In this document: piece after piece, positions 3 through 19,042 of the stretch
Layout of the letters: each line of letters starts with the position of its first letter
Position numbering within the stretch: position 1 is the first letter of the stretch
From: an uncultured Pseudacidovorax sp.
GTDB taxonomy: Bacteria; Pseudomonadota; Gammaproteobacteria; Burkholderiales; Burkholderiaceae_C
Length of the DNA: 64,000 bases
NCBI RefSeq assembly: GCF_913773995.1
Contig: NZ_CAJYES010000033.1
Coordinates: forward strand, 17,364 to 81,363
Direction: 5' to 3'
Program-made: the position numbers and the translations under genes
The notes under the pieces: generated by a model
What the model was told of the DNA's origin: nothing
Seen by the model: only the letters and a program-made list of their open reading frames with translations
The model's database searches: none

Positions 3-617
3 GTGGTGGCCGAGGTGCCCAGCGTCATCGTGACCGGCCCGGCGCTCAAGGACAAATCGCTCAAGGACCTGCTGGCCATGGCCCGCGCCAAGCCGGACGA
101 AGTGCAGTACGCCTCGTCCGGCGTGGGCACGACGAGCCATGTGGGCGCGGCACTGATCGAGTCGATGACCGGCGTGCGCATGACGCATGTGCCGTACAAG
201 GGCGCCGCCCCCGCACTGCAGGACGTGATGGCCGACCGCGTGCCGCTGTCGGTGGACATCATCACCTCCTCCCTGCCGCTGGTGACCAGCGGCAAGCTCA
301 ATGCCGTGGCCGTGACCGGTGCCAAGCGCGCGCCCAAGCTGCCCAACGTGCCCACGGTGGCCGAGGCCGGCATCCCGGGCTACGAATTCGTTTCCTGGTA
401 CATGCTGCTGGCGCCGGCCAAGACGCCCAGGCCGGTGCTGGAGCAGGTCAATGCCGAGTTGCGCAAGCTGGCCGCCCTGCCCGAGTTCCGCACGCGCATC
501 GAGGACACTGGCGGCCAGGTCGTCACGACCACGCTGCCGCAGGCCAACGACTACCTCAACGCCGAGTTCACGCGCTGGGCCAAAGTCGTCAAAGACCGCA
601 ACATCAAAGCAGACTGA
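3..617 (+). CDS. Bug/TctC-family tripartite tricarboxylate transporter substrate-binding protein (5' end outside the window)
   Basis: Bug motifs YASSGVGTTSH, HVPYKGAAPALQDV and PNVPTVAEAGIPGY; C-terminus WAKVVKDRNIKAD. Its stop overlaps the next ATG. Confidence 0.9.
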   Translation: MVAEVPSVIVTGPALKDKSLKDLLAMARAKPDEVQYASSGVGTTSHVGAALIESMTGVRMTHVPYKGAAPALQDVMADRVPLSVDIITSSLPLVTSGKLNAVAVTGAKRAPKLPNVPTVAEAGIPGYEFVSWYMLLAPAKTPRPVLEQVNAELRKLAALPEFRTRIEDTGGQVVTTTLPQANDYLNAEFTRWAKVVKDRNIKAD

Positions 618-1546
618 TGAACCAGCCTCACCCCGCCCAGCCCCGCGACTTCATCGGCTACGCCAATCGCCCACCCGCCGTGGCCTGGCCGGGCGGGGCG
701 CGGGTGGCGGTCTCCTTCGTGCTGAACTTCGAGGAGGGCGCCGAGTTCTCGGTGGCCGATGGCGATGCACGCAACGAGTCGGTGTACGAGGTGATCGACC
801 CGCGCACCGGCTGGGATCCGTGCATCGACAGCCACTTCGAATACGGCACCCGCGCTGCCTGGTGGCGGATCGCCGAGCTGTTCGAGCGCCATCACGCGCC
901 GATGACGGTGAGCGCCTGCGGGCGCGCGGTGGAGCGCAGCCCCTGGCTGGCGCAGGATGCGGTGGCCCGCGGGCATGAGGTCTCGGCCCATGGCTGGCGC
1001 TGGGAGAGCCATGCCGGCATGGCGCCCGCCCAGGAGGCCGCCGCCATGGACGCCTGCCTGGGCGCCATCGAGGCGGCCTGCGGGCGGCGGCCGGTGGGCT
1101 GGCACACGCGCTCGGCCTGCACGCCGAATACGCGGGCGCTGCTGGCCGAGCGCGGCTTCCTCTACGACAGCGACGCCTATAACGACGATGTGCCCTTCTT
1201 CGTGCCGGTGGCCGGCCGGCCGCACCTGGTGCTGCCCTATGCCTTCGACACCAACGACATGCAGTTCCAGCACACGCAGCGCTTCGCCACCGCCGCGCAG
1301 TTCGCCGAGTACGTCTGCGATGCCTTCGACTGGCTGCACGACGAGGGCGCCACACGGCCACGCATGATGTCGGTGGGACTGCACCTGCGCATGATCGGGC
1401 GGCCAGCACGCATGAAGGCGCTGGCGCTGATCCTCGAACACCTGCAGCGCCGCGGCGGCGCCTGGATCGCCACGCGCGAGCAGATCGCCCGCCACTGGCT
1501 GGCCCACGCTCCCCGCCCCGGCTCGGTGGCCACCGCCGCCGGATGA
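617..1546 (+). CDS. Polysaccharide deacetylase family protein, PuuE allantoinase-like
   Basis: PuuE-like segments RDFIGY, WPGGARVAVSFVLNFEEG, EYGTR, HGWRW, YDSDAYNDDVP, NDMQF and SVGLHLRMIGRP. Confidence 0.85.
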   Translation: MNQPHPAQPRDFIGYANRPPAVAWPGGARVAVSFVLNFEEGAEFSVADGDARNESVYEVIDPRTGWDPCIDSHFEYGTRAAWWRIAELFERHHAPMTVSACGRAVERSPWLAQDAVARGHEVSAHGWRWESHAGMAPAQEAAAMDACLGAIEAACGRRPVGWHTRSACTPNTRALLAERGFLYDSDAYNDDVPFFVPVAGRPHLVLPYAFDTNDMQFQHTQRFATAAQFAEYVCDAFDWLHDEGATRPRMMSVGLHLRMIGRPARMKALALILEHLQRRGGAWIATREQIARHWLAHAPRPGSVATAAG

Positions 1547-1609
1547 CGGCGTCCGCCGACAGGGATCGCGCGGATGGGCGTCCCGAGGGCCTGCGCTAAA
1601 GTCATCCGG

Positions 1610-2320
1610 ATGCATCCGACGGAAGAGGCCATCCACCGCACCCTGGCGCAGACGCTGCTGGCCGGGCGGCTCGCGCCCGGCACCCAGCTGGTGGAAACGC
1701 GCCTGGCGCAGATCTTCGGCGTCTCGCGCGAGCGGGTGCGCAAGGTGCTGCACCGGCTGGGCCACGAGCGGCTGCTGGACCTGATGCCAAACCGCGGCTG
1801 CTTCGTCAGCAACCCCACACTGGCGCAGGCGCGCGAGATCTACGACGCCCGCCGCATCATTGAAGGCGGCATCGTCGGCAGTCTGGCCGGCACGCTGAGC
1901 CCCTCGCAGCTAGAGGCGCTGGCCGAACACGAGCGGCGCGAGCATGCCGCGCTGCATGCGGGCGACCGCGCGGCCTCGATCCGGCTGTCGGGCGAATACC
2001 ACCTGCTGCTGGCCGAGTTCACCGGCAGCCCCTTCGTGGTGCGTCAGTTGCAGGAGCTGGTCAGCCGCACCGCCATGCTGGTGGCCTTCTTCGAGCCGGC
2101 CAGCGCCTCGGGCTGCGGCTGCGAGGAGCACGAGGCCATCGCCCTGGCCCTGCGCCGCGGCGATGCGGCCGGCGCCATGAAGGCCATGCAGGTGCACCTG
2201 TCGCTGATCGAGACGCGGCTCAAGCCCCGCGCCGCGCCCGAAGCCGAAGTGGACGCCGAGCAGGCCATCGCGGAGGCCTGGGCCGACGCCCAGGCCGGCC
2301 TGGCCCAGCCGGCCGCCTGA
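1610..2320 (+). CDS. GntR/FCD-family transcriptional regulator
   Basis: wHTH LAPGTQLVETRLAQIFGVSRERVR followed by an FCD-like domain (SGEYH, EHEAI). ATG 1610 chosen over 1574. Confidence 0.9.
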   Translation: MHPTEEAIHRTLAQTLLAGRLAPGTQLVETRLAQIFGVSRERVRKVLHRLGHERLLDLMPNRGCFVSNPTLAQAREIYDARRIIEGGIVGSLAGTLSPSQLEALAEHERREHAALHAGDRAASIRLSGEYHLLLAEFTGSPFVVRQLQELVSRTAMLVAFFEPASASGCGCEEHEAIALALRRGDAAGAMKAMQVHLSLIETRLKPRAAPEAEVDAEQAIAEAWADAQAGLAQPAA

Positions 2321-2384
2321 CCCCCGCGGGCACGGGCGCTGCTTTCTTCGACCGGCACCGCTGTCACCTTCACCGGGCCCTGCC

Positions 2385-3083
2385 ATGACCCAGACCGCTC
2401 CCGCCCTGCCGCCACGCCCCCGGCTGCTGGTGCTCAATCCCAACCGCACGGCCGCCATGACCGACGCCGTGCTGCACGAGCTGCGCCGGCTGACGGTCGG
2501 CCAGGTGGAGCTGCGCGGCTTCACCTGCGACGACGGGCCGCCGGTGATCGCCACCCGCGAGAGCTTTGCCGCCGGCGCCGCCGCCGCCGCCCGGGCCTGG
2601 CCCGCAGTGGACGACGGCTGGGCCGATGCCGTGCTGCTGTCCTGCTACGGCGACCCGGGGCTGGCGGCGCTGCGGGCCGCCAGCCGCGTGCCGGTGCTGG
2701 GCATGGCCGAGTCCAGCATGCTGCAGGCGCTGGCCCGCGGGCGCCCCTTCCACATCGTCACTGCCGGCAAGGCCTGGGGGCCGATGCTGCATGAGCTGGC
2801 CGCGCGCCACTCCAGCGCCTGGCCGCTGCTGCACGGCATCACCACGCTGGACACCACCGGGCTGGCCGGCAGCCAGAACCCGGCCGCCTTCTCGGCGCTG
2901 GTCCAGCGGGCGCTGGACGATCTGGCCGGCGCGCACCCGGGCGGCATGGCTCCCGACTGCATGCTCGGCGGCGCCGGCTTTGCCGGCATGCGGCCCACCC
3001 TGCGCTACGGCGGGCTACTGGAGGACGGGTTGCAGGCCGCGCTGGCGCAGTGGCGGCCGCTGCCGGTCACTCCGGCTTCCTGA
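2385..3083 (+). CDS. Asp/Glu/hydantoin racemase family protein (allantoin racemase-like)
   Basis: LVLNPN..MT, SCYGDPG and PVLGMAE motifs; the second motif reads LGGAG. Confidence 0.8.
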   Translation: MTQTAPALPPRPRLLVLNPNRTAAMTDAVLHELRRLTVGQVELRGFTCDDGPPVIATRESFAAGAAAAARAWPAVDDGWADAVLLSCYGDPGLAALRAASRVPVLGMAESSMLQALARGRPFHIVTAGKAWGPMLHELAARHSSAWPLLHGITTLDTTGLAGSQNPAAFSALVQRALDDLAGAHPGGMAPDCMLGGAGFAGMRPTLRYGGLLEDGLQAALAQWRPLPVTPAS

Positions 3084-3275: not shown

Positions 3276-4478
3276 ATGACTTCCGCCTTCCTTTTCCCCT
3301 CTTCCGACCTGCGCCCGCAACTGGCCGTGCACCGTCTGGCCATGGCCCATCCCGGCGATCTGTCGGCCCTGGCCGCGCTCTTCGACGCCGGCACCGTGGG
3401 CGCCGACGAGGTGGTGGCGGTCATTGGCAAGACCGAGGGCAATGGCGGCGTGAACGACTTCACCCGTGGCTACTTCACCCAGTCGCTGATGCAGCTGCTG
3501 GCCGAGCGCACCGGGCGGCCGGCCGAGGCGATCTGGCGCGCGCTGCCCTGCGTGCTCTCCGGCGGCACCGAAGGCGTGCTGAGCCCGCATTACGTGGTCT
3601 TCTCGCGCCGTCTGGTGCCGGCGCATGCGGCGCGCGGCGCCAGCACCGACGCCCCGGTCGACGCCCCCGCCAACGCCCGGACGATCAATGCGGCCTCCGC
3701 CGCCCTTGCCATCGGCACCGCCTTCAGCCCCCCGATGGCCGCTCAGGACATCGGCCGCTGGACCCATGTGCGCACGGTCGCCCAGGCCGTGCGCGCCGCC
3801 ATGGACCAGGCCGGCATCGACCGGCCCGAGGACGTGGCCTTCGTCCAGCTCAAGTGCCCCTGCGTCACCTCGGCCCGGGCCCAGGCGGCCGCGGCGGCCG
3901 GCCACACCGTGCTTACGGCCGATCCGGGTCGCTCCATGGCCTTCGCCCGGGCGGCGGGCGCTTTCGGCGCCGCCATCGCGCTGGGCGAACTGCCCGACGA
4001 CCCGGTGCTGGAAGGTGCGCTGCTGCAGGACTTCGACCGCTTCTCGGCCCGCGCCAGCGTTTCCTCCGGCGTGGAGGTGGAGGCCAACGAGGTGATCGTG
4101 CTCGGCCACAGCACCCGCTGGCAGGGCCCGCTGCGCATGGGCTGCGCGCCGATGCGCGACGCGCTGGACATCGCCGCCGTCGGCGAGGCGCTGCGCCCGC
4201 TGGGTCTCTCCGCCACGCCGCAGTTGCCGGCCGAGCAGGCCATGCGCGTGGCGGCCGTCTTCGTCAAGTGCGAACCCGATCGCCGCGGCCAGGTGCGCGG
4301 CGTCCGCCACACCATGCTGGACGACACCGACATCAATGCCCAGCGCCACATCCGCGGCGCCGTGGGCGGGCTGGTGGCCGGCGTGCTGGGCGATGGGCGC
4401 CTCTTCGTCTCCGGCGGCGCGGAACACCAGGGTCCGGACGGCGGCGGCCTGGTGGCCGTGATCGCGGCGGTCGCCTGA
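3276..4478 (+). CDS. atzD: Ring-opening amidohydrolase, cyanuric acid hydrolase/barbiturase (AtzD/TrzD) family
   Basis: Family motifs GKTEGNG.VNDFTRG, LSGGTEGVLSPH, VQLKCP, SMAFAR, SSGVE, FVKCE, RHTMLDDTDI..QRHIR and VSGGAEHQGPDGGG. The symbol marks the family; the substrate is not proven. Confidence 0.93.
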   Translation: MTSAFLFPSSDLRPQLAVHRLAMAHPGDLSALAALFDAGTVGADEVVAVIGKTEGNGGVNDFTRGYFTQSLMQLLAERTGRPAEAIWRALPCVLSGGTEGVLSPHYVVFSRRLVPAHAARGASTDAPVDAPANARTINAASAALAIGTAFSPPMAAQDIGRWTHVRTVAQAVRAAMDQAGIDRPEDVAFVQLKCPCVTSARAQAAAAAGHTVLTADPGRSMAFARAAGAFGAAIALGELPDDPVLEGALLQDFDRFSARASVSSGVEVEANEVIVLGHSTRWQGPLRMGCAPMRDALDIAAVGEALRPLGLSATPQLPAEQAMRVAAVFVKCEPDRRGQVRGVRHTMLDDTDINAQRHIRGAVGGLVAGVLGDGRLFVSGGAEHQGPDGGGLVAVIAAVA

Positions 4479-4483
4479 CACGC

Positions 4484-5884
4484 ATGACCGCCATGCACGC
4501 CTGGCAGATGAGCGCCGAGGCCCTGTCGCAGGCCTATGCGCGGCGCACGCTGTCGCCGGTGGAGGCACTGCTGTCCGTGCTGAGCCGGGCGGAAGCGGTG
4601 CACCCCGTCATCAACGCCCTGGTGGTGCGCGATGACGCCGCAGCACTGGCGGCGGCCCAGGCCAGCGAGGCCCGCTGGCGACGGGGCGCGCCGCTGTCGC
4701 CGCTCGATGGCGTGCCGCTCACCGTCAAGGACAACCTCCCCGCGACCGGCCTGCCCTGCCGCTGGGGCAGCCGGCTCTTCGCCGACCACTGGCCGGCGCG
4801 CGACGAAAGCCCCGTGGCGCGGCTGCGCGCGGGCGGCATGGTGATTCTGGGCAAGACCAACGTGCCCGAGTTCACCCTGCAGGGCTACACCGACAACCCG
4901 CTCTTCGGCCCCACCGGCAACCCGTGGGCCCCGGCGCTCACGCCCGGCGGAAGCAGCGGCGGCGCCGTGGCGGCCGTGGCGGCAGGCATCGGCCCGCTGG
5001 CCCTGGGCACCGATGGCGGCGGCTCGGTCCGCCGGCCCTGCGGCTTCACCGGGCTGTATGGCCTCAAGCCGGGTCGCGGCATGGTGCCGCGTGTCGATGG
5101 CCTGCCCGTGCTGCTGCCGGGGCTGGAAGAAGCGGGCCCCATCGCCCGCGGCATGACCGACCTGCTGCTGGCGCTGCGCCTGCTCGCGCCCACGCTGACG
5201 CCGCTGTGTGAAGCCCCCGGTCCGCTGCGCATTGCGTACTGGCGCACCATCGGCGACAGCCCGGTCGATGCGGCCATCCTGGCGCGCAGCGATGCCGCGG
5301 CCGAGCGGCTGCAGGCCATGGGACACACCGTGGTCGTGCAGCCCTCGCTTCCCGAAGTCGAGGCCTTCAACTGCCAGGCCTGGCCGGTCATCGCCAGCAC
5401 CGGCATGGCCGCCGCGCTGCAGGAGCGCATCGACGGCCGCGAGGACGAGCTCACACCCGCCATGGCCGCGCTGTTTGCGCAGGGCCGCAGCCACAGCGCG
5501 GTCGAGCTGTTCCAGGCCCAGGCGCTGCAACGCGCGCTGGCGCGGGCCTTGCAGGGCCTGTTCGCTCAGCACGACCTGCTGCTCACCCCGGCCAGCGCGG
5601 CCTTGCCCTGGCCCGCCGACCAATCCCATCCCACCACCATCGCCGGCCAGCCGGTGGACGGCCGCGGCCATGCCGTGTTCACCGCCTTCGTCAACGGCGC
5701 CGGACTGCCCGCGCTGGCGCTGCCGGCCGGCCCGACGGAAGAAGGACTGCCGGTCGGCCTGCAACTGGTGGCCCCGCGCGGTGGCGACGCGCTGCTGTGC
5801 GCCGTCGGCGCGATGTGGGAACGCGATGCCGCGCCAGCCTGGTGCTGGCCGCCTGCCCTCGACAAGGAAGAGATGCCCTCATGA
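4484..5884 (+). CDS. Amidase-signature family amidase
   Basis: PLDGVPLTVKDN (Lys), GKTNVPEF, PGGSSGG and GTDGGGSVRRP (Ser-cisSer-Lys triad). Real start is ATG 4484, not 3050. Confidence 0.92.
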   Translation: MTAMHAWQMSAEALSQAYARRTLSPVEALLSVLSRAEAVHPVINALVVRDDAAALAAAQASEARWRRGAPLSPLDGVPLTVKDNLPATGLPCRWGSRLFADHWPARDESPVARLRAGGMVILGKTNVPEFTLQGYTDNPLFGPTGNPWAPALTPGGSSGGAVAAVAAGIGPLALGTDGGGSVRRPCGFTGLYGLKPGRGMVPRVDGLPVLLPGLEEAGPIARGMTDLLLALRLLAPTLTPLCEAPGPLRIAYWRTIGDSPVDAAILARSDAAAERLQAMGHTVVVQPSLPEVEAFNCQAWPVIASTGMAAALQERIDGREDELTPAMAALFAQGRSHSAVELFQAQALQRALARALQGLFAQHDLLLTPASAALPWPADQSHPTTIAGQPVDGRGHAVFTAFVNGAGLPALALPAGPTEEGLPVGLQLVAPRGGDALLCAVGAMWERDAAPAWCWPPALDKEEMPS

Positions 5885-7254
5885 AGATCGTGATCGTGGG
5901 CGCCGGCGTGGCCGGTGCCATCCTCGCCCGCCGACTGGCCCGCCTGCCCGGCGTGGAACTGCACTGCCTGGAGCGCGTCGGGCCCGACGACCATGCCGAG
6001 GCCGGCACCGGACTGAACGTGGGCCCGAACGCCATCAAGGCGCTGCGCCGCCTCGATGCCGCGCTCGCGGCCGAGGTGGAGGCCGCCAGCCTGCCCTGGA
6101 CCCGCTGGGACATCGCCCTGACCGACGGCACGCCGCTGATGGCGCTGCCCCTGTCGCAGGTGGCCGACAACCCGGGCATCCGCATCCGCTGGTCGGAGCT
6201 GTACCGCGTGCTGCGCCAGGGCGCGGGCGCAGCCTTCCGCTATGGCTGCACGCTCGAATCGGTGGGCGCCAGCGAGACGGCGCCGGGCAAGACCCGCGTG
6301 CGCTTCACGCAGCACGGCGCCACGCACGAGATCGACGGCATCGACCTGCTGGTGGGCACCGACGGCCGCTACTCCCGCGTGCGCGAGACCTTCTCCGGTG
6401 CGCCCGAGCCGCGACACATCGGCGTCGCCATCCTGCGCGTGCTGGTGCCCGACACCAGCGCCGGCCTGGTGGACGACTACGGCCAGTGGTTCAGCGGCTG
6501 CCACCGGCTGCTGGCCTTCCGCGTGCCGCCGGACCATGTCTACATCGCCGCCACCTACCCGGTGGCACCCGGCGCCCCGGTACAGGACGCGTGGAAGACC
6601 GAGGCCGTGATGCGAGCCACCTACCAGCCTGCCCAGGGCGAGGCCAGCCCCGCCGTGCGCTGGCTGCTGGACGCCATGTGCGCCCAGTTGCACGACGCGC
6701 ACTGGGCCCGCATGCAGGAGGCCGACGTGCGCTTCGCCGAGCCCGAGGTGGACGTGCTGTACCTGGGCGACAGTGCCCACGGCATGGCGCCCACGCTGGG
6801 CCAGGGCGCGACGCAGGCCATGGAAGACGCCTGCGCCGCCGCGCTGATCGTGGAGGACGCCTGGGCCCGCGGCCAGCGCACGCCGCGCGTCTGGCTCGAC
6901 CGCATCGCCGAGGCCCGCACCGAGCGCCTGCGCTTCGTGATGGACCTGTCGGTGCGCGCCACCGACACCATGCTCGACGGCGCCGACCCGGTGGCCGGCA
7001 CACGCTGGAAGACCCAGGCACCCTTCCAGGCCGAGCTGGCGGCGCTGTTCCGCGACGTGGCGCTGGGCGTGCCGGACGAGGCCCAATGCCAGTCAGCGAA
7101 TCACAGTCCGTTCGGGCTGAGCCTGTCGAAGCCGGGCGCAAGCCCTTCGACCCTTCGACCCTTCGACAAGCTCAGGACAGGCCAAGCTCAGGACAGGCCA
7201 AGCTCAGGGCGAACGGGTGATCCGACTGGCAGGGGGCCAAGGCCCACGGCCTGA
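5881..7254 (+). CDS. Group A FAD-dependent monooxygenase (salicylate/urate hydroxylase-like) with a repeat-derived C-terminal tail
   Basis: MKIVIVGAGVAG Rossmann motif, DG motif (GTDGRYSRVR) and GD motif (LGDSAHGMAPTLGQGATQAMED). The ATG overlaps the amidase stop. Confidence 0.88.
   Translation: MKIVIVGAGVAGAILARRLARLPGVELHCLERVGPDDHAEAGTGLNVGPNAIKALRRLDAALAAEVEAASLPWTRWDIALTDGTPLMALPLSQVADNPGIRIRWSELYRVLRQGAGAAFRYGCTLESVGASETAPGKTRVRFTQHGATHEIDGIDLLVGTDGRYSRVRETFSGAPEPRHIGVAILRVLVPDTSAGLVDDYGQWFSGCHRLLAFRVPPDHVYIAATYPVAPGAPVQDAWKTEAVMRATYQPAQGEASPAVRWLLDAMCAQLHDAHWARMQEADVRFAEPEVDVLYLGDSAHGMAPTLGQGATQAMEDACAAALIVEDAWARGQRTPRVWLDRIAEARTERLRFVMDLSVRATDTMLDGADPVAGTRWKTQAPFQAELAALFRDVALGVPDEAQCQSANHSPFGLSLSKPGASPSTLRPFDKLRTGQAQDRPSSGRTGDPTGRGPRPTA
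7108..7216. repeat. REP-like palindrome, expanded copy
   Basis: Left arm CCGTTCGGGCTGAGCCTGTCGAAGC. The right arm contains CCCTTCGA x3 and CAAGCTCAGGACAGGC x2 before CAAGCTCAGGGCGAACGG. Confidence 0.9.
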
Positions 7255-7286
7255 TTCCTGCTCGGCCTTCTGCAACGCACCACCCC

Positions 7287-7823
7287 ATGAACAACGCTCT
7301 CACCCACGGCCTCTTCCACCTGGCCATCAAGACCGCCGACCTGGCTGCCACGAGCGCCTTCTGGATCGGCGTGATCGGTCTGCGTGAAGTACCCCGGCCC
7401 GACTTCGGCTACCCCGGCGCCTGGCTCGCCTGCGGCCAGCCGGGCGGGCAGGCCATCATCCACGTCTATGCCGGCGGCCCGGCCCTGGGCGGCCAGGCCA
7501 GCGTGCCGCAGGGCACGGCCGCCATCGACCATGTGTCGCTGGCCTGCAGCGGCTACCACGCCTACATCGCGCGCTTCCGCGCCGCAGGGCTCGCCTGGCG
7601 CGAGTTCTTGGTGCCCGGCACCACGCTGTGGCAGCTCTTCGTCTACGACCCCAGCGGCGTGCAGCTGGAGTTGACCTTCGAGGGCGCCGTCGAAACCGGC
7701 GCGCCGCCCGACATGTCGCCCGGCCGCGTCTACCGCGCCGGCGAATCCTTCTTCGACACCGCCACCTATCCCACCCTTTCCCTGAACACACCCTCCGGAG
7801 AACCCGCCCATGCTTCGCACTGA
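7287..7823 (+). CDS. VOC (glyoxalase/dioxygenase superfamily) protein
   Basis: FHLAIKTADL, PGAWL, IIHV, IDHVSL and QLFVYDPSGVQLEL, with the His/His/His/Glu pattern of VOC proteins. Confidence 0.85.
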   Translation: MNNALTHGLFHLAIKTADLAATSAFWIGVIGLREVPRPDFGYPGAWLACGQPGGQAIIHVYAGGPALGGQASVPQGTAAIDHVSLACSGYHAYIARFRAAGLAWREFLVPGTTLWQLFVYDPSGVQLELTFEGAVETGAPPDMSPGRVYRAGESFFDTATYPTLSLNTPSGEPAHASH

Positions 7824-8796
7824 CTTCCTGCGGCTTGCCGCACGCGCCACCGCCGCATTGGCACTGGCCCTGCCCTTCGCGGGCGTCGCCCATGCGGCCG
7901 ACAAGATCAAGTTCGGCGTCTTCCCGTCCAGCGCCGCGCTGCCCTTCTACATCGCCCAGAACCGCGGCTGGTTCAAGGAGGCCGGTCTGGAGGTGGAAGA
8001 GGTGCCGATGACCAGCCATCCGCTCACGGTGCAGGCCATCGTCTCGGGCAACATCGACGGCGCCGCCAACCTGGTGACGCTGGAAGGCGCCAACATGGAG
8101 TCGCGCCGGCCCGGCACGCTCAAGTACATCTCGCTCAATGGCCAGAACAGCCAGCATGTGATCGAGCAGTTCGTGGTCAAGGCCTCCAGCCCGGCCAAGT
8201 CGCTCAAGGACTTCAAGAACGGGTTCAAGCTCTTCTCGGCGCCCGGCCCGGCCAACATCGGCGCGGCGCGCGCGGTGCTCAAGAAGGTGGGTCTGGTCGA
8301 AGGCAAGGACTTCACCATCCAGGAGCAGCAGATCGGCGTGCACGTCGGCGCGCTGCAGTCGGGCAACTTCGACGGCGGCTACACGCTGGAGCCCTCGGCC
8401 ACCATCATGGTGGCGCAGGGCGTGGGCCGGCGCGTGGAGACGGGCGTGATCGCCACCTACCTGCTGGGCCGCAAGGAGGCCTCGGCCTTCGCTGCCGGGG
8501 CCGTGCTGTCCGACAAGTTCATCGCCGAGCGGCCCGAGGTCGCCAAGCGCTTCGCCGCCGTGTGGGCGCGCGGCGTGAAGGCCGCGCAGACCGACACCAG
8601 CACCCGCGGCTACCTGATCCAGGGCATGAAGGTGCCGCCCGAGCTGGCCGCCACCGTGCCGCTGCCGCGCATCGTGATGACGGGCGACCTGTCGCCGGCC
8701 GACGTGGCCGACTTCCAGAAATTCCTGGACATCGGCACCGAGCTGGGCGTGATCAAGGACAGGATCGACGGCAAGGCCGTGGTCAAGGCGCTGTGA
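7810..8796 (+). CDS. NitT/TauT-family ABC transporter substrate-binding protein
   Basis: Signal peptide ending AHA-A; ALPFYIAQNRGWFKEAGLEVE (SsuA/NMT1-like); followed by ATPase and permease genes. Confidence 0.88.
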   Translation: MLRTDFLRLAARATAALALALPFAGVAHAADKIKFGVFPSSAALPFYIAQNRGWFKEAGLEVEEVPMTSHPLTVQAIVSGNIDGAANLVTLEGANMESRRPGTLKYISLNGQNSQHVIEQFVVKASSPAKSLKDFKNGFKLFSAPGPANIGAARAVLKKVGLVEGKDFTIQEQQIGVHVGALQSGNFDGGYTLEPSATIMVAQGVGRRVETGVIATYLLGRKEASAFAAGAVLSDKFIAERPEVAKRFAAVWARGVKAAQTDTSTRGYLIQGMKVPPELAATVPLPRIVMTGDLSPADVADFQKFLDIGTELGVIKDRIDGKAVVKAL

Positions 8797-9641
8797 TGCG
8801 GGCCATGGACGTCTCCCCGCCGCGCACTGCGCCCCCCACCGACGCCGACGCGACCAGCGCCGCCGCGGGCCACCGCTGGTTCGCGCCCGGCACGCACATC
8901 ACCATCCGCGGGCTGACCAAGCGCTTCGGCGATGCGGCGGTGTACGAGAACTTCGACCTCGACATCCCGCACGGCAGGATCACCTCGGTCTTCGGCCCCA
9001 ACGGCTGCGGCAAGAGCACGCTGATCAACATGATCGCGGGCATCCTGCCGCACGACGGCGGCCAGATCCTGTTCGAGGGCAAGACGGCGCGCGAGACGCG
9101 CATCGGCTACGTCTTCCAGAACTACCGCGAGGCGGTGTTCCCGTGGATGCGGGCCATCGACAACATCCGCTACCCGCTGCAGTACCTGGGCCTGTCGAAG
9201 GCCGAGCGCGAGGCGCGCATGGACCGGCTGATGGCCGAGTTCGACGTCAAGCTGGACCTGTCGCGCTACCCCTATCAGATGTCCGGCGGCCAGCAGCAGC
9301 TGGTGTCGATCATGCGGGCGCTGGTGGTGGAGCCGGAGGTGCTCTTCCTCGATGAGCCCTTCTCCGCGCTGGACTACGAGATGGTCATGTTTTTGCGCGA
9401 GCGGCTGCAGAGGGTGCTGGTGGGGCGCAAGGTGACGACGCTGCTCGTCTCCCACGACCTGGACGAGGCCGTGCTGCTGGCCGACCATGTGCTGCTGCTG
9501 ACCAAGCGGCCCACGCAGGTGGCCGACAACCTGCCCTTCGACGTGCCGCGCCCGCGCACGGCGGCCACCACCGTCTCGCCGGAGTTCATCGACGTGAAGA
9601 CGCGGGCGCTGGAGATCTTCCAACGCGAGGTGCGCAAATGA
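8796..9641 (+). CDS. NitT/TauT ABC transporter ATP-binding protein
   Basis: Walker [10 protein letters not shown], signature MSGGQQQ, Walker [13 protein letters not shown]-loop VSHD. ATG 8796 overlaps the upstream TGA. Confidence 0.93.
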
Positions 9642-10399
9642 AGACGCCGATCGCTGCACGCCTGCGGCCGCTGTGGGGCATGGCCCTGATCATCGCGCTG
9701 TGGGCCTTCGCCCATGCCACCAAGGCGGTGGACCCGGTGCTGCTGCCCTCGCCCGGCGAGGCGCTGCAGGCCTTCTGGAAGGGGCTCTCGGGCGGCACGC
9801 TGTGGGGCGACTTCGAGAAGACCATCGTGCGCACACTGGTCTCCTTCGTCATCGCGCTGGCGGTGGCCGTGCCGCTGGGCGTGATCCTGGGGGCCAACGA
9901 GAAGATCTACGAAGGCATCGAGTTCGCCATCGACTTCTTCCGCTCGACGCCGGCCTCGGCCATGTTCCCGCTCTTCCTGGTGCTGTTCGGCGTGGGCGAG
10001 AAGACCAAGATCGCCGTGGCCGCCTTCGGCGCGGCGCTGGCCATCCTGTTCAACGTGGCCTACGGCGTGATGAGCGCGCGCAAGCAGCGGCAGCTGGCCG
10101 CCCGCGTGATGGGCGCGCCGCGCTGGCGGGTGCTGACCGACGTGACGCTGCTCGAATCCATGCCGCAGGTCTTCGTGGGCATGCGCTCGGGTGTGTCCAT
10201 CGCGCTGGTGATCGTGATCGTGGCCGAGATGTTCATCGGCTCCACCGACGGCCTGGGCCAGCGCATCATGAATGCCCAGACCATCTTCGACATGCCCGAC
10301 ATGTACGCTTCGATCTTCGCGGCGGGCCTGCTGGGCTACGTGATGAACCTCATCTTCCTGGTGGCGGAGCGGCGCTTCGTGCACTGGGGCGGAAAGTAA
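9638..10399 (+). CDS. NitT/TauT ABC transporter permease
   Basis: LLPSP motif, multiple transmembrane segments, EAA-like loop [18 protein letters not shown], and VAEMF. Confidence 0.92.
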
Positions 10400-10410
10400 G
10401 AGACGACCCC

Positions 10411-10800
10411 ATGACTGTGTCCATGAACGAGATCAACCTGCCGGACGTGCTGGCCGAGGTGAACGCGGTGTTCGACGAGTACGAGCGCGCCCTGACGACC
10501 AACGACGTGCCGGTGCTCGATCAGCTGTTCTGGGACTCGGAACACACGCTGCGCTACGGCGCCACCGAGAACCTCTATGGCTACGCCGCGATCCAGGCCT
10601 TCCGCCAGGGCCGCCCGGCCAACAACCTGGAGCGCGAGATCACCGCCCGCTCGGTCACCACCTTCGGCCGCGATTTCGCCGTCGCCAACGTGGAGTTCCG
10701 CCGCACCGGCAGCACCCGCATCGGCCGCCAGAGCCAGACCTGGGTGCGCCTGCCCGAGGGCTGGAAGGTGGTGGCGGCCCATGTGAGCCTGATGGGCTGA
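10411..10800 (+). CDS. hpxZ: HpxZ/AtzH-family protein (DUF3225, NTF2-like)
   Basis: [43 protein letters not shown] and [10 protein letters not shown] are characteristic of the family. Confidence 0.92.
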
Positions 10801-10914: not shown

Positions 10915-11631
10915 CTACTTTCCGCCCCCAGCCGCCATCGCCTTCTGCATCTCCGCCGCCATGCGACGCATGTCCTCGGGCGACATGGACTGCTGCATCT
11001 GGCCCATCATGCGCTGGATCTCGGCCTGCGTCGGCGCCCGGCCCGCGGCCGCGGCGGCGCCCATCGGCGCCGTCATGCGCTGCATGTCGACGACGTTCAT
11101 CTTCATGCCGCCGGGCAGCACCATGTCGCCGGGCCGCATGCCGGCGGGGCAGGCGCCCTTCCATTGCGCCTCCATCGTCATGTCGCTCTCGTCCTGTTTG
11201 GCTCGGGGCGGGGCATAGGTGGTGTGGGAGCTCACGCGGTAGCTGCTGTTCATGTCGCCGGTGACGACGGTCAGCCGCGTCATCGTGGTGTCGGGCAGCT
11301 TGCAGACCTCCTTGTGCGTCAGCACGCGGCCCACCTCGCTGCGCATGTCCTCCTGGCAGTTCGTGGGCTTGCGCGCCTCGGCCTGACGACTCGCACCCTG
11401 CTCCTGCAGCAGTCGGTCGGTGGCCGCATCGGCGCACTGCTGCAGGGTCATCGGCTGGCCCTTGGCGGAGGTTTCCACGCGCATCTCCCACAAGCCGTCC
11501 TTGCGGCGCGGGAAAGCTGGGCCGGCGAACACGGCGGCGGTCTCGGCGAGCAGCGCGAGGGCGATGGTGATGCGGGCGGTGCGGAAGGGACGGAAGGGAC
11601 GGAAGGGACGGAAGGGACGGAATGCGGACAT
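10915..11631 (-). CDS. DUF3617-family secreted protein
   Basis: Signal peptide, then RKDGLWEM..T, QQC..C, WKGAC Cys pattern, and a Met/Gln-rich helical tail. Confidence 0.8.
   Translation of the reverse strand: MSAFRPFRPFRPFRPFRTARITIALALLAETAAVFAGPAFPRRKDGLWEMRVETSAKGQPMTLQQCADAATDRLLQEQGASRQAEARKPTNCQEDMRSEVGRVLTHKEVCKLPDTTMTRLTVVTGDMNSSYRVSSHTTYAPPRAKQDESDMTMEAQWKGACPAGMRPGDMVLPGGMKMNVVDMQRMTAPMGAAAAAGRAPTQAEIQRMMGQMQQSMSPEDMRRMAAEMQKAMAAGGGK
11582..11622. repeat. Tandem 9-mer (CGGAAGGGA) x4 plus a partial copy, encoding (FRP)n in the DUF3617 signal n-region
   Basis: Read directly from the sequence; protein starts MSAFRPFRPFRPFRPFRTAR. Confidence 0.95.
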
Positions 11632-11759: not shown

Positions 11760-12968
11760 TCAGAACGCCGTCCACTTCTGCGCGCTGGCTGCGCTCTCCA
11801 CCGCCTTCTCGATGAAGCGCACGCCGCGCGCGCCATCGGCCAGGGTGGGGTAGTCGGCCCGCAGCGGATCGGGCGCCACGCCCTGCTGCAGCGCGCGGAT
11901 GTGCGCGATCACGCCCAGGTAGACATTCGCGAAGGCCTCGATGAAGCCCTCCGGGTGGCCGGCCGGCAGCCGCGTGGCCAGGCGCGCAGAAGCGCCCAGC
12001 CACGGCGAGCCGCGCGTCAGCAGCCGCCGCGGGCCGTCCAGCGGTGAATGCACCAGCAACTCGGGCTGCTCCTGCCGCCAGTCCAGCGTGCCGGTGGTGC
12101 CGAAGACGCGCAGGCGCAGGTCGTTCTCGCAGCCCACCGCGATCTGCGAGGCCACGAGCACGCCACGCGCGCCGCCCTTGAAGCGCAGCAGCAGGCTGGC
12201 GTCGTCGTCCAGCCGACGGCCGGGCACCAGCGCCGACAGGTCGGCGCACAGGCTGTCCAGTTCCAGGCCGGTGACGGTGGCCACGAGGTTCTCGGCATGC
12301 GAGCCGATGTCGCCCAATGCACCGGCCGCACCGCTGCGTGCCGGGTCGGTGCGCCAGCCGGCCTGCTTGTTGTCGCCGCCTTCGAGGCGCGTGGCCAGCC
12401 AGCCCTGGTGGTAGTCGACCACCACCTTGCGCACCTCGCCGATGGCGCCAGCGGCCACCATATCGCGAGCCTCGCGCACCATGGGATAGCCGCTGTAGTT
12501 GTAGGTCACGCCGAAGACGCTGCCGCTGCGTGCCACCGTGCTCACGAGATCCTGCGCCTGCTCGCTGGTGTGGACCAGCGGCTTGTCGCACACCACATGG
12601 ATGCCGGCCTCGGCGAAGGCGCGTGCGACCTCGTGGTGCAGGTGGTTGGGCGTGACGATGGTGACGAAGTCGATGCGCTCGTCGGCGCTGCGGCGTAGCT
12701 CATCCTGAAGCAGCGACTGCCAGTCGGCATGGTTGCGCGCATCGGCCAGGCCCAGTTCGCGCCCCGAGGCGCGCGCGCGCTCGGGCGTGGAGGACAGGGC
12801 GCCAGCCACCAGCTCGGCCTGGCTGTCCAGCGCCAGGGCCTGGCGGTGCACGGCGCCGATGAAGGCGCCCTGGCCGCCGCCGACCATGGCATAGCGCAGC
12901 TTGCGGGTGGCCTGGGGCGCGTCTGCGCTGTCCATGGCTGTGGGCCGTGCCTCGGTGTGTTCGCTCAT
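11760..12968 (-). CDS. Gfo/Idh/MocA-family oxidoreductase
   Basis: [34 protein letters not shown] and [12 protein letters not shown] 12968 overlaps the upstream TGA. Confidence 0.92.
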
Positions 12969-13990
12969 GTGCCTGCCATGCCGCCCTGGGCGGCCTTGTC
13001 GAAGGCGGCATCGAAGGCACCGGCCGCGGGCGGAAAGTCCAGCCGGCGGCAGAAGGCGGCGCTTTCGGTGGCGCCATGCACGCGGTCCATGCGGCTGTCC
13101 TCCCACTCCACCGAGAGCGGGCCGGCATAGCCGATGTCGTTGAGCGCCACGATGATGGATTCGAAGTCCACCATACCGCGGCCCACACTGCGGAAGTCCC
13201 AGAAGCGGCGCGCGTCCCCGAAGCTGGTGTGGCCGCCGAAGACGCCCACGCTGCCATCGCCCCTGCCCCACCACACGTCCTTCATGTGGGCGTTGTAGAT
13301 GCGGTCGGCAAAGCCGCGGATGAAGCGCACGTAGTCCACGCCCTGGTAGGCCAGGTGGCTGGGGTCGTAGTTGAAGCCGAAGCGCCGGTGGCCGCCCACG
13401 GCGGCGACGGCCCGCTCGGCCGAGGCGATGTCGAAAGCGATCTCGGTGGGATGCACCTCGAGCGCGAAGTTCACGTCCTGCTGCTCGAAGGTGTCCAGGA
13501 TGGGCCCGAAGCGCCGCCCGAAGTCCGCGAAACCCGCATCCCAGTAGGCCTGCGTCGTCGGGGGGAAGGCATAGGTGGCGTGCCAGATCGACGAGCCGGT
13601 GAAGCCGGTGACGGTCTTGACGCCGAATTTCGCCGCGGCGCGCGCCGTGTCAGCCAGTTCGCGAGCGGCGCGCTGGCGCACGCCTTCCGGCTCGCCGTCG
13701 CCCCACACATGGGCGGGCAGGATGGCGCGGTGCCGCTCGTCGATGAGGTCGCACACCGCCTGGCCCACCAGGTGGTTGCCGATGGCCAGGCAGGTGAGGC
13801 CATGCTCGCGCAGCAGCGCCCACTTGTCGCGCACATAGGTGTCGGAGGCCAGGGCCTGCTGCACGTCGAAGTGGTCGCCCCAGCAGGCCAGCTCCAGGCC
13901 GTCATAGCCCATGCGCCGGGCCAGCGGCGCCAGTTCGGTCAGCGGCAGGTCGGCCCACTGGCCGGTGAAGAGGGTGATGGGGCGCGGCAT
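12965..13990 (-). CDS. Sugar phosphate isomerase/epimerase (xylose isomerase-like TIM barrel, AP_endonuc_2)
   Basis: [27 protein letters not shown] and LSVEWED metal-binding motifs. Confidence 0.9.
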
Positions 13991-14003
13991 GGACCGTCCT
14001 CCG

Positions 14004-14966
14004 TCAGAACGGGGAGTCGGGGTGGTAGAAGTCCTTGGCGTTGTCCTTCGTGATCAACACCGAAGGAATGATCGTGGTCGCCGGCAGCTTCTCGCCCTTC
14101 AGGCGCGCCTCGGCCGTGAGCTTGATCGCGTCGTAGATGAACTTGGGCGAGTAGCTCACGTCGGCCTGGATGCGCGGGTCCTTGTTGTCGAGGATGGTCT
14201 TGACCATGCCCTTGGCCCCGGCGCCGCCGAAGACGATCTTGATGTCGTTGCGCTTGGCCTGCTCGATGGCCTTGAGCACGCCCACGGCCATGTCGTCGTC
14301 GGCGGCCCAGATGGCGTCGATTTCCTTGAAGCGCGTGAGGTAGTCCTGCGTCACCTTGAAGGCATCGTCGCGGTTCCAGTTGGCGTACTTGGCGTCCAGC
14401 AGCTTGATGTCCGGGTAGTTCTTGAGCACGGCGTTGAAGGCATCCATGCGCTCGTTGTCCAGTGTGGTCGCGATGCCGCGCAGCGCCACCACGTTGCCCT
14501 TGCCGTTCAGCTTCTTGGCGATGTACTCGGCGGGGATCTTGCCGAAGGCGGTGTTGTCACCGGCCACGTAGGCGTCCTGCGCGCTGGTGTCGGTGAGGCC
14601 GCGGTCCACCACCGTGACGTAGGCGCCCTTGGCCTTGACCTGCGCCACCGGCTTGGTCAGCGCGGCCGACTCGAAGGGGAAGACGACCAGCGCGTTGATC
14701 TTGGTGACGGTGCTCAGATCCTGCAGCTGGTTGGCCTGCTCGGGCGCGTTGGCAGCCGTCTTGATGGTGATCTTCAGGTCCTTGTACTGCTTCTCCAGGT
14801 CCTTCTTGGCCTGGTTGGCCCAGTAGTTGATGCCGCCCATGAAGCTGTGGGTGGCGGCCGGGATGGACACGCCGAGGTTCACTTTCTCGGCGGCCAGCGC
14901 GGGCACGCTGGCGAAGGCGGCGGAGGCCACGGCGGTGAGCGCGAGGCGGCGGGTGACGAAGGTCAT
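14004..14966 (-). CDS. Sugar ABC transporter substrate-binding protein (RbsB-like)
   Basis: Signal peptide; [20 protein letters not shown] and [10 protein letters not shown]. Confidence 0.92.
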
Positions 14967-15014
14967 GGGGTTGTCTCCTGGGTTGGATGGAAGGTCACTG
15001 GCACACGAAAACAT

Positions 15015-15075
15015 CCGTTCGCGCCGAGCCTGTCGGAGCGCCGGCACCCGGCTTCGACAGGCTCAGCCCGAACGG
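15015..15075. repeat. REP-like palindrome, inverted relative to the 10836 copy
   Basis: CCGTTCGCGCCGAGCCTGTCGGAGC ... GCTTCGACAGGCTCAGCCCGAACGG, intergenic between the permease and binding-protein genes. Confidence 0.9.
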
Positions 15076-15116
15076 TGGGAGAGAGGCGCGCTGCCCGAAC
15101 GGCTGGGAGAAGGCGT

Positions 15117-16145
15117 TCATCGCCGCCCCCTCTGCAGAAAGGCCACCACGATGATCACGAAGCCCTGCACCGCCGCGTTGAGGTACACGCTGATGATGCT
15201 GGTGAGGTTGAGGATGTTGCTGATGACCGAGAGCAGGATCGCCCCCACCACCGTGCCGGCGATGCTGCCCGCGCCGCCCTTGAGCGCGGTGCCACCGACG
15301 ATCACGGCGGCGATGGCCTCCAGCTCCCAGAGCAGGCCGGTGGTGGGCGAGGCCGAGCCCAGACGCGGCACGTACAGCAGCGTGGCGATGCCCACGCACA
15401 CACCCAGCAGCATGTAGGTGAAGATCTTCACGCGGTCCACGTCCACGGCCGCATAGCGCGCCACCTGCTCGTTGGAGCCGATGGCCTGCACGTAGCGCCC
15501 ATAGGCCGTGCGGTTGAGGATCACGCCGCCCACCGCCGCCACCGCCACGAACACCCACACCGGCACTGGAATGCCCAGCAGGCTCGCGTAGTAGACCGGC
15601 GCGTACAGGTCCGACAGGTCGTTGTCGAGCGTGAGCGCCCCTCCGTCGGCGAAGTAGGTGAGGTAGGCGCGGAAGATGCCCAGCGTGCCCAGGGTGACGA
15701 TGAAGGGCTCGATGCGGCCCTTGGTGATGAGCAGCCCGTGCGCCAGGCCGAACATCGCGCCCAGCACCACCGCCAGGCCCGCGCCCAGTACCACGGCCAG
15801 CAGCGGCGAGCCGGTGGCCGGCCCCGCCCAGTTGATGAACATGATCACGCTGCCCGCGATCAGCGCCGCCATCGAGCCCACCGACAGGTCGATGCCGCCC
15901 GAGATGATCACGAAGCACATGCCCACCGCGATGATGCCGATGAAGGCCGTGCGCGTGAGCACGTTCATGGCGTTGTCCACGGTCGCGAAGTCGCTGTTGA
16001 GTGCGGCCCCCGCGATGCACAGCAGCACCAGGCCGATGATGGGGCCCAGGCCGTGCAGGCGTTCGGCCCAGCCCGGCCGGGCGGCGGCGCGGTGCTGTGC
16101 CCCTTCGGCCGCGGCGGTGGAGGAAGCGGTGTCAGGCGTCGACAT
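15117..16145 (-). CDS. Sugar ABC transporter permease (RbsC-like)
   Basis: [33 protein letters not shown] and [13 protein letters not shown]. Start may be 16163. Confidence 0.93.
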
Positions 16146-17664
16146 GGGTTGTTCCCGTGGCATGGGCGATAAGCTGTTCTTCGGTGAGGCCGTCGGCCGG
16201 CAGCGTGGCGACGATACGGCCCGCGCGCATGACGGCCACGCGGTGTGCGAGGCCGATGAGTTCCATCAGCTCAGACGAGATGACGATGACGGCCAGGCCT
16301 TCGCGCGCCAGGCGCTGCACGAGAAAGTAGATGTCGCGCTTGGCGCCCACGTCCACGCCGCGCGTGGGTTCGTCGAGCACCACCACCTTCGGATGCGGCT
16401 GCAGCACCTTGGCCAGCGCCAGCTTCTGCTGGTTGCCGCCGGAGAGCGACGAGGCGCGCACGTCCAGCGAGCCGGTGCGGATGCCGTAGTCCTTCACGGC
16501 GGTGTCGAGCGCGGCGCGCTCGGCATCGGGCCTCAGCCAGGGCCGCGCGTACTGGTCCAGCGCCATCAGCGTGAGGTTCTGCCGCAGGCCGAAGGCCACG
16601 TGCAGCCCCTTGCCCTTGCGGTCCTCGCTGAGGTAGGTGAGGCCGTGGCGGGCGGCGTCGCGCGGCGAGCGCAGCTGCACCGCGCGGCCCGCCAGCTCGA
16701 CCTGGCCGCGCCCCGGGCGCAGGCCCAGCAGGCCTTCGAAGAGCTCGGTGCGCCCGGCACCCACCAAGCCGGCGAAGCCGAGGATCTCGCCCGGCCGCAC
16801 CTCGAAGCTGGCCTGCTGCGCCCAGCCGGGCACCTCGAAGCCCTGCACGCGCAGCGCAGGTGCGCGGCCGGCCGGCACCGGCTCGCGCGGCGGATAGAGG
16901 TCGGCGATCTCACGGCCGACCATCAGGTTGGCCATCTGGTGGCGCGTGACCTCGGCCGTGGCCGCGCGCGTGACGAAGCGGCCGTCGCGCATCACGACAA
17001 CCTCGTCGGTCACGCGCTCCACTTCGTCCAGCTTGTGCGAGATGTAGACGATGGTCACGCCGTCGGCCCGCAGTTGCGCGATGAGGCGGAACAGGCGCTC
17101 CGTCTCGCCCGGCGTGAGCGTGGCGGTGGGCTCGTCCATGATCAGCAGCCGGGCGCGCCGCGCGATGGCCTTGGCGATCTCGACCAGCTGCTTCTCCGCC
17201 ACGATCAGGCGCCGCACCTTGGTGGCCGGATCGACCTGCAGGCCCACCTGGGCCAGCGCCGCAGCGGCCTCGGCCTGCATGGCGCGCTCGTCGAGGAACG
17301 GGCCCTTCTTCTTTTCGTGGCCCAGGAAGATGTTGTCGGCCACGCTCAGGTCTTCGGCCAGGTTGAATTCCTGGTGGATCAGCACGACGCCCAGCGCCTC
17401 GGCATCGCGCGAGCTGCGGAAGGCCTGCGGCTGGCCGTTGATGCGCAGCACGCCGCCGCTGGCGCTTTCGTAGCCGGCCAGGATCTTCATCAGCGTGGAC
17501 TTGCCGGCGCCGTTCTCGCCCAGCAGGCCGACCACCCGGCCCGGCGGCAGTGCGAAGCTCACGCCGTGCAGCACCTGAACCGGGCCGAAGGCCTTGGTGA
17601 TGCCGTCGAACTCGACGGCGACGCCGGGCGTCGCTGCCGTGGAGGGGGAGGTCATGGCCGCCAT
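16132..17664 (-). CDS. Sugar ABC transporter ATP-binding protein (two-domain, RbsA-like)
   Basis: [23 protein letters not shown] and [13 protein letters not shown]. Confidence 0.93.
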
Positions 17665-17677
17665 CGCGCGCTCCGGC

Positions 17678-18880: not shown

Positions 18881-19042
18881 GCGGCGTTGTCTCCGTGCTT
18901 TGTGTTGCCAATCTTGACCGAATGGCAAAGTGGCACGGATGCTAGGCGGCCGACTTTGGACAGACAAGGCCGAACTTTGGCCAGAAATCGGCAGAAGTGG
19001 CCGACGCACGTCTCTTGGCTTCATGCGTTGGCAAGCCAAAAG

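What the first reader, a model, noticed from the sequence alone, without database searches (positions are those of the whole stretch)
5881..7823. Flavin monooxygenase plus VOC metalloprotein embedded in a hydrolytic cluster
Seen: a group A FAD monooxygenase coupled to the amidase by an ATGA overlap, followed by a VOC protein with a His/His/His/Glu set. Known: cyanurate degradation needs no oxygenase; group A enzymes hydroxylate activated aromatic or heteroaromatic rings (HpxO on urate), and some VOC proteins cleave rings (extradiol dioxygenases, toxoflavin lyase). Inference: the real substrate is an unsaturated or fused heterocycle that must be oxidised before AtzD-type ring opening.
Basis: inference. 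Interest (0 to 1): 0.55.

Follow-up and report, generated by a model that had tools for sequence, protein, structure and literature searches.

The report
Oxygenase-dependent pyrimidine ring breakdown module
These two genes belong to a conserved, unstudied bacterial gene set that most likely adds an oxygen to an oxidised pyrimidine (barbiturate type) and then opens the ring with a distinct relative of cyanuric acid hydrolase, which would be a route of nucleobase breakdown I could not find described.

Summary
Observation confirmed: group A flavin monooxygenase (FMO, ATGA overlap with the amidase) and a VOC protein with invariant His11/His59/His82/Glu128. They are not strangers in a hydrolytic cluster but its core. 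In 47 of 48 FMO loci with enough flank the neighbour is one clade of AtzD-like enzyme that keeps the cyanurate Arg triad but changes the three entry-gate residues (Cys>Gly, Tyr>Asn/Gly, Thr>Gln). No biuret or allophanate genes lie nearby. In 17 of 28 long loci the operon starts with a molybdenum hydroxylase whose nearest kin (47-50%, NF040766) co-occurs with barbiturase in 41 of 42 actinobacterial genomes, i.e. a likely uracil/thymine dehydrogenase. Best reading: uracil/thymine -> (5-methyl)barbiturate -> FMO C5 hydroxylation -> AtzD-like ring opening -> amidase. Substrate is inferred, not shown, and this genome lacks that Mo enzyme. The ring-cleaving role proposed for the VOC is weakly supported: it also follows canonical cyanurate hydrolase plus AtzH without any oxygenase. 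The scan earlier noted a sister FMO-PuuE-AllA module and the actinobacterial dehydrogenase candidate on other DNA, not this module.

The parts
3276..4478 (+). AtzD/barbiturase-family (Toblerone) ring hydrolase of a separate clade ('Gln320 clade'); start codon uncertain
   Evidence: PF09663 E 3e-130; clade with SH-aLRT 100; signature G46, L82, R194, C296, Q320, I323, R324, GG
4484..5884 (+). Amidase-signature amidase, not AtzE or AtzF
   Evidence: PF01425; best NCBIfam PRK06169 334 bits, AtzE 185, allophanate hydrolase 178, none over cut-off; Lys and both Ser motifs present
5881..7254 (+). Group A FAD monooxygenase of an uncharacterised family; ~400 aa core
   Evidence: 1521 homologues, none with a tested function among names shown
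7108..7216 (.). REP-like palindromic repeat inside the FMO 3' end, which lengthens the ORF
   Evidence: inverted arms; 43 exact copies of the 24-mer in the genome; absent in two congeners
7287..7823 (+). Single-domain VOC metalloprotein with His/His/His/Glu site
7810..10399 (+). NitT/TauT-type ABC importer (NMT1/THI5-like binding protein, ATPase, permease)
   Evidence: follows the VOC in most betaproteobacterial loci
10405..10800 (+). HpxZ/AtzH-like protein
   Evidence: NF033625 204 bits, cut-off 135; in 14 of 77 FMO loci
617..3083 (+). PuuE-like hydrolase, GntR regulator and hydantoin-racemase-like gene; with the Bug gene, a block inserted between the module's LysR (just upstream of the window) and the atzD-like gene in this genus only
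   Evidence: the PuuE-like protein is of the subfamily found beside FMO/VOC in another family (53-54%), not the canonical allantoinase type (42-45%)

Best explanation
The operon is the lower part of an oxygenase-dependent variant of oxidative pyrimidine catabolism. (1, inferred) A Mo hydroxylase oxidises uracil/thymine to barbiturate/5-methylbarbiturate; hosts such as this one that lack the enzyme import the oxidised ring through the NMT1-type ABC transporter. (2, inferred) The FMO uses NAD(P)H and O2 to hydroxylate the nucleophilic C5, as HpxO does at C5 of urate, giving 5-hydroxy-5-methylbarbiturate or dialurate (which air-oxidises to alloxan). This turns an enolate that only inhibits cyanurate hydrolases into a trione-like ring. 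(3, inferred) The Gln320 AtzD-like enzyme, with a cyanurate-type Arg triad and a remodelled entry gate, opens it to a tartronyl/mesoxalyl ureide or N-carboxy amide. (4, inferred) The amidase releases nitrogen; VOC and AtzH are accessory enzymes for unstable ring-opened ureides or carbamates; PuuE-like hydrolase and racemase, where present, recover hydantoins formed by re-cyclisation. Shown here: gene identity, conservation, clade structure and co-occurrence only.
For: FMO with Gln320 hydrolase in 47/48 loci, VOC directly after in 60/71. coxSML-atzD-like-FMO-VOC operon in 17/28 long loci. Its large subunit scores 940 and 901 bits to NF040766 (next family 644) and is sister to actinobacterial members at 46-50% identity. 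NF040766 co-occurs with PF09663 in 41/42 genomes versus 8/132 without it, 16 of 21 same-contig pairs within 40 kb, and the 29 loci read carry the barbiturase signature; the Embleya cluster adds a RutG-like permease. The clade shares G46, C296, I323 with barbiturase. Entry-gate residues Cys45/Tyr188/Thr326 of TrzD (PMC5366886) are all changed. Barbiturate inhibits CAH (PMC4051656). Pyrimidine neighbours in single loci: dihydropyrimidinase, upp, cytosine-deaminase-like.
Against: No assay. This genome (99.99% complete) and five other module carriers have no NF040766-like enzyme (best 436-581 bits). 47-50% identity does not fix a Mo hydroxylase's substrate, and NF040766 as uracil dehydrogenase is itself inferred from context. 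Other hosts carry unrelated CoxL types beside the module. No described pathway hydroxylates barbiturate. Dialurate/alloxan are redox-cycling, which would be costly (own knowledge). Some neighbours are purine genes.
Confidence: 0.5

Rival explanations
1. Same architecture (Mo hydroxylase, FMO, Toblerone hydrolase, amidase) but a different monocyclic azine: a modified or damaged pyrimidine (5-hydroxy-, 5-hydroxymethyl- or 5-carboxy-uracil, thiamine-derived pyrimidine), or a di/trihydroxypyridine. The FMO may act by decarboxylative hydroxylation like NicC.
For: Best sequence and fold matches are NicC and salicylate hydroxylases; THI5-like binding protein; deaminases upstream in some loci; Mo enzyme only ~48% identical to the barbiturase-linked group; hosts without it still keep the module.
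Against: Identity to NicC is only ~22-25% and NicC His47 is Asn here; three retained Arg argue for three carbonyls.
Confidence: 0.25
2. A fused purine or pteridine (urate analogue, 8-oxoguanine, lumazine) is hydroxylated HpxO-style, the VOC opens or contracts one ring, and the AtzD-like enzyme opens the remaining ring toward oxalurate.
For: HpxO is among the closest folds; HpxZ, PuuE-like, racemase and AllA-like genes recur with this FMO family; a 55% VOC relative sits among deaminases and creatininase; some loci lie in purine islands.
Against: HpxO model score 77 versus cut-off 500; no HIUase or OHCU decarboxylase in the core loci; the Mo enzyme is far from xanthine dehydrogenases; the VOC occurs without oxygenase and the FMO without VOC.
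Confidence: 0.13
3. The Gln320 enzyme is a proteobacterial barbiturase that opens barbiturate directly; the FMO serves a side branch (for example only the thymine-derived ring) or acts after ring opening.
For: Shared G46/C296/I323 with barbiturase; Mo enzyme directly upstream of the hydrolase gene.
Against: Barbiturase signature N195/H321/K325/V345/A346 is absent; group A FMOs need an activated ring or enolate (own knowledge); FMO linkage is nearly invariant.
Confidence: 0.08
4. An ordinary cyanuric acid operon with hitch-hiking oxygenase and VOC genes.
For: Passes NCBIfam NF052395 (459 > 360); keeps all catalytic dyads and Arg residues; the VOC also occurs in true CAH operons.
Against: A true barbiturase passes the same model (486); no BiuH/AtzE/AtzF in 77 loci, while this genome has a canonical Thr320 hydrolase and BiuH/AtzE/AtzF elsewhere; separate clade.
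Confidence: 0.04

Closest known systems
Oxidative pyrimidine pathway of Rhodococcus: uracil/thymine dehydrogenase, barbiturase (PDB 5HWE), ureidomalonase (PMC3758960, PMC7662398)
   Same: Mo hydroxylase of the sister group upstream of a Toblerone-fold ring hydrolase and an amide hydrolase
   Different: Adds an FMO and a VOC; hydrolase lacks the barbiturase signature; found in proteobacteria; no carbamate kinase or FdrA block
Cyanuric acid hydrolases AtzD/TrzD with AtzEGH/AtzF or BiuH (PMC3758960, PMC6219798, PMC5366886)
   Same: Three Ser-Lys dyads, three Arg, Gly-Gly, metal loop; AtzH neighbour; the same VOC family follows some true CAH genes
   Different: 42-46% identity, own clade, entry gate changed, no biuret/allophanate genes, constant oxygenase partner
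HpxO urate hydroxylase (3RP6) and NicC 6-hydroxynicotinate 3-monooxygenase (5EOW)
   Same: Group A fold and fingerprints; likely electrophilic hydroxylation of an activated N-heterocycle
   Different: 20-25% identity, far below family cut-offs; different operon partners
Glyoxalase I / FosA-type single-domain VOC proteins (1F9Z, 2QQZ); single-domain VOC dioxygenases (L-DOPA dioxygenase 6ON1, ChaP 6A52)
   Same: Paired beta-alpha-beta-beta-beta fold, four-ligand metal site
   Different: His replaces one GlxI glutamate; <=24% identity; no solved relative with this context

Membership tests
Group A flavoprotein monooxygenase | Single chain with GxGxxG, DG and GD fingerprints and PHBH-like fold | tested here: met
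   Motifs invariant in 26 homologues; fold matches NicC/HpxO/TrlE, pLDDT 90
Group A flavoprotein monooxygenase | FAD binding and NAD(P)H/O2-dependent hydroxylation | not testable with these tools
   needs purified enzyme
HpxO urate hydroxylase (NF033623) | HMM score over 500 bits | tested here: not met
   77 bits
NicC / salicylate hydroxylase | Family cut-off; NicC His47 | tested here: not met
   TIGR03219 49 bits versus 446; Asn at the His47 position
VOC superfamily metalloenzyme | VOC fold with conserved metal ligands at the GlxI positions | tested here: met
Ring-cleaving VOC dioxygenase (extradiol, toxoflavin lyase) | Two-domain extradiol architecture or close kinship to a characterised dioxygenase; linkage to an oxygenase | tested here: inconclusive
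   Single domain; small VOC dioxygenases score Z 10-11.8, tied with non-oxygenases; linkage not obligatory
Cyanuric acid hydrolase (neighbour gene) | Signature Arg195/Thr321/Arg325/Gly345/Gly346 (PMC3758960) | tested here: not met
   Gln at the Thr position in 64 of 64 readable rows; other four met
Cyanuric acid hydrolase (neighbour gene) | Linkage to biuret/carboxybiuret/allophanate hydrolases | tested here: not met
   0 of 77 loci
Barbiturase (neighbour gene) | Signature Asn195/His321/Lys325/Val345/Ser-Ala346 | tested here: not met
Oxidative pyrimidine pathway | Uracil/thymine-oxidising Mo hydroxylase upstream | tested here: inconclusive
   Sister-group enzyme in 17/28 long relative loci; not found in this genome; activity untested

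The most novel reading that the evidence does not exclude
A second, oxygen-consuming form of oxidative pyrimidine catabolism: a new barbiturate/5-methylbarbiturate 5-monooxygenase makes a trione for a new class of Toblerone hydrolase, and a VOC metalloenzyme catalyses an undescribed step on the reactive product (dialurate/alloxan, ureide or carbamate). It would also point to the gene for uracil/thymine dehydrogenase, now labelled aerobic CO dehydrogenase.
Probability: 0.4. Interest if true: 0.75.

Novelty: new variant of a known kind. Interest (0 to 1): 0.6.

Why it matters
It gives three uncharacterised enzyme groups (an FMO family, a Toblerone clade with its own signature, a VOC family) concrete, cheap substrate tests. 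The AtzD/barbiturase family has only two established substrates in the papers I could read, so a third class bears on where triazine-degrading enzymes came from. It would add a route to the short list of pyrimidine degradation pathways. It also flags misannotation: these hydrolases pass the cyanuric acid hydrolase HMM, and the linked Mo enzymes are called CO dehydrogenases, which inflates counts of both traits in metagenomes.

Tried and rejected
Four key papers were not held (Seffernick 2012, Seffernick and Wackett 2016, Peat 2017, Aukema 2020), so prior mention of this clade cannot be excluded; nine full-text searches found no description of the module. No FMO homologue on plasmids. First AtzD tree with very divergent rows was unresolved; rebuilt without four rows; the position of barbiturase in it is unreliable (long branch). 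The FMO tree does not separate AtzD-linked from PuuE-linked members with a reliable root. Atlas feature search gave only generic VOC clusters. Fold searches name no function for the VOC. VOC and AtzH were not found within 1.5 kb of 29 actinobacterial barbiturases, so earlier notes of such a pair were not reproduced. Metagenome records could not be extended. Nonomuraea has the NF040766 enzyme but no barbiturase was seen in ~40 kb around it. Rejected: PuuE/racemase as core parts (0 of 28 long loci); the 457-aa length as meaningful (REP read-through); cyanurate made from oxonate by the FMO (would need biuret genes). No complex prediction was run. Two unpublished genomes (G1627, G1598) were left out of all counts.
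Full report
Observation. The window holds the run PuuE-like, GntR, racemase-like, AtzD-like, amidase, FMO, VOC, ABC importer, HpxZ/AtzH, all on the + strand. The FMO (5881-7254) starts in the amidase stop as ATGA, and the VOC (7287-7823) follows after 32 nt. The FMO has the three group A fingerprints and the fold of NicC, TrlE and HpxO, but only 20-25% identity to any of them and no family cut-off is reached. Its last ~55 residues are read-through into a REP-like repeat with 43 copies in the genome. The VOC residues H11, H59, H82, E128 sit at the glyoxalase I metal positions and are invariant in 26 homologues. The host is close to Pseudacidovorax (96-99% protein identity).

The two genes are the core, not passengers. 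The FMO defines a tight family (about 25 full-length representatives at 50% identity). Among 77 non-duplicate metagenome loci picked only by FMO similarity (best 80 of 272, so 54% identity or more), the atzD-like gene is adjacent in 46 of 48 loci with 1.7 kb upstream, plus one more with the amidase between; the VOC follows directly in 60 of 71; the amidase is in 35 and AtzH in 14; BiuH, AtzE and AtzF in none; PuuE and racemase in none of 28 long loci. In other genera the LysR lies directly before the atzD-like gene; in Pseudacidovorax a Bug-PuuE-GntR-racemase block is inserted there. The module is uncommon: 6 of 401 family genomes, 2 of 400 class genomes, 1 of 401 alphaproteobacterial genomes searched. 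These loci are related, so the counts are not independent events.

The hydrolase is neither CAH nor barbiturase. FMO-linked AtzD-like proteins form one clade (26 rows, SH-aLRT 100; four very divergent rows left out). They keep the three Ser-Lys dyads, three Arg and Gly-Gly of cyanuric acid hydrolase but have Gln at Thr320/321, one of five specificity positions of PMC3758960. The three residues proposed to gate substrate entry in TrzD (Cys45, Tyr188, Thr326; PMC5366886) are Gly, Asn/Gly and Gln. Gly46, Cys296 and Ile323 are shared with barbiturase. The NCBIfam CAH model is passed, but so it is by a true barbiturase. This genome has a canonical Thr320 enzyme and BiuH/AtzE/AtzF on other contigs, and other genomes also carry both types.

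The upstream enzyme points to pyrimidines. In 17 of 28 loci with 5 kb upstream the operon reads coxM-coxS-coxL-atzD-like-FMO-VOC(-amidase). The large subunit scores 940 bits to NF040766 ('aerobic CO dehydrogenase group 5', cut-off 950), against 644 for the next family, and groups with actinobacterial members at 46-50% identity. One of these, in Embleya, lies with a RutG-like permease, carbamate kinase and a true barbiturase (E 6e-178 to 5HWE). Across 174 actinobacterial genomes (two unpublished ones left out) 41 of 42 with NF040766 have a PF09663 gene against 8 of 132 without; 16 of 21 same-contig pairs are within 40 kb; the 29 loci read have the barbiturase signature. Since barbiturase needs barbiturate made by oxidation of uracil (PMC3758960, PMC7662398), NF040766 is the natural candidate for uracil/thymine dehydrogenase (inference; an earlier scan report, e1-4216951, reached the same view and was seen only afterwards). 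Single loci add dihydropyrimidinase, uracil phosphoribosyltransferase and a cytosine-deaminase-like gene. Against this: the window's genome and five other carriers have no such enzyme, and some hosts have unrelated CoxL types next to the module.

Mechanism (inferred). From general chemistry (own knowledge): barbiturate is an enolate with a nucleophilic C5, a fit for a C4a-hydroperoxyflavin enzyme, and HpxO attacks the matching C5 of urate. Barbiturate binds but inhibits CAH (PMC4051656), whose substrate is the triketo form (PMC3758960). C5 hydroxylation of 5-methylbarbiturate locks a trione with a bulky polar C5, matching a kept Arg triad and a widened gate; barbiturate would give dialurate and then alloxan. 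Ring opening yields a tartronyl or mesoxalyl ureide or an N-carboxy amide for the amidase and AtzH, which is proposed to decarboxylate such products (PMC6219798). Mesoxalyl- and pyruvyl-ureas cyclise to chiral 5-hydroxyhydantoins, which would explain why PuuE-like hydrolases, racemases and AllA-like lyases recur with this FMO family: the window's PuuE-like protein is of the same subfamily as those beside FMO-VOC in another family (53-54%) and not the canonical allantoinase type.

The VOC. It is a single-domain protein closest in fold to uncharacterised glyoxalase-like proteins and GlxI; small VOC dioxygenases score within the same Z range, so oxygen chemistry is not excluded. Context argues for a role after ring opening: 77-81% identical homologues follow canonical CAH plus AtzH without any oxygenase (Comamonas sp. 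CAH-2 and a metagenome contig) or pair with AtzH alone in a genome with no FMO, and several FMO operons lack it. The common factor is ring-opened ureides or carbamates.

Comparison and novelty. It works like the Rhodococcus oxidative pathway with an inserted HpxO-like step, but the FMO is not HpxO or NicC and the hydrolase fails both published signatures. I found no paper on the module in nine searches, but four central family papers could not be read. Verdict: real, conserved, apparently undescribed catabolic module; substrate class moderately supported, exact steps untested. New variant of a known kind; interest 0.6.

Noticed in passing
NCBIfam NF040766; L122, L123, G1591 and 40 more actinobacterial genomes: The family named 'aerobic CO dehydrogenase group 5' tracks barbiturase almost perfectly and is probably uracil/thymine dehydrogenase.
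   Followed up: yes
NCBIfam NF052395: The cyanuric acid amidohydrolase equivalog also passes a true barbiturase (486 bits) and the Gln320 clade (459), so it over-calls CAH.
   Followed up: yes
L009:10001-10513 and L179:8001-8510: Canonical cyanurate operons (Comamonas sp. CAH-2; a metagenome contig) end in atzH plus this VOC, which was not found on pADP-1-type plasmids in the plasmid search.
   Followed up: partly
L095:4256-6787, L130:7315-8337, L132:18465-19535: A very divergent AtzD-like group lacking the catalytic Ser232 equivalent lies with a flavoprotein, PuuE-like and AllA-like genes, near a second FMO paralogue.
   Followed up: partly
L126:4995-7524: A CAH-signature hydrolase with an NCS2 permease is carried on many enterobacterial plasmids from clinical and water samples.
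   Followed up: no
L127:833-8995: Acidithiobacillus group IV AtzD-like gene sits with a xanthine-dehydrogenase-type enzyme, ureidoglycolate lyase, AtzE and HpxZ: another oxidative Toblerone cluster.
   Followed up: no
L131:4812-6474, L133:134-1796, L097:16801-18233: Nitrile hydratase-like genes lie next to the module in three genomes.
   Followed up: no
window 7108-7216 and near 16100: REP-like palindromes; one extends the FMO reading frame, with variable length among congeners.
   Followed up: partly
window 10915-11631: DUF3617-like protein with a short repeated N-terminal peptide follows the cluster on the opposite strand, also in Variovorax.
   Followed up: no
window 11760-19039: Sugar ABC transporter with ROK regulator, sugar-phosphate isomerase-like and Gfo/Idh/MocA genes, followed by the ATP synthase operon; looks ordinary.
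   Followed up: no
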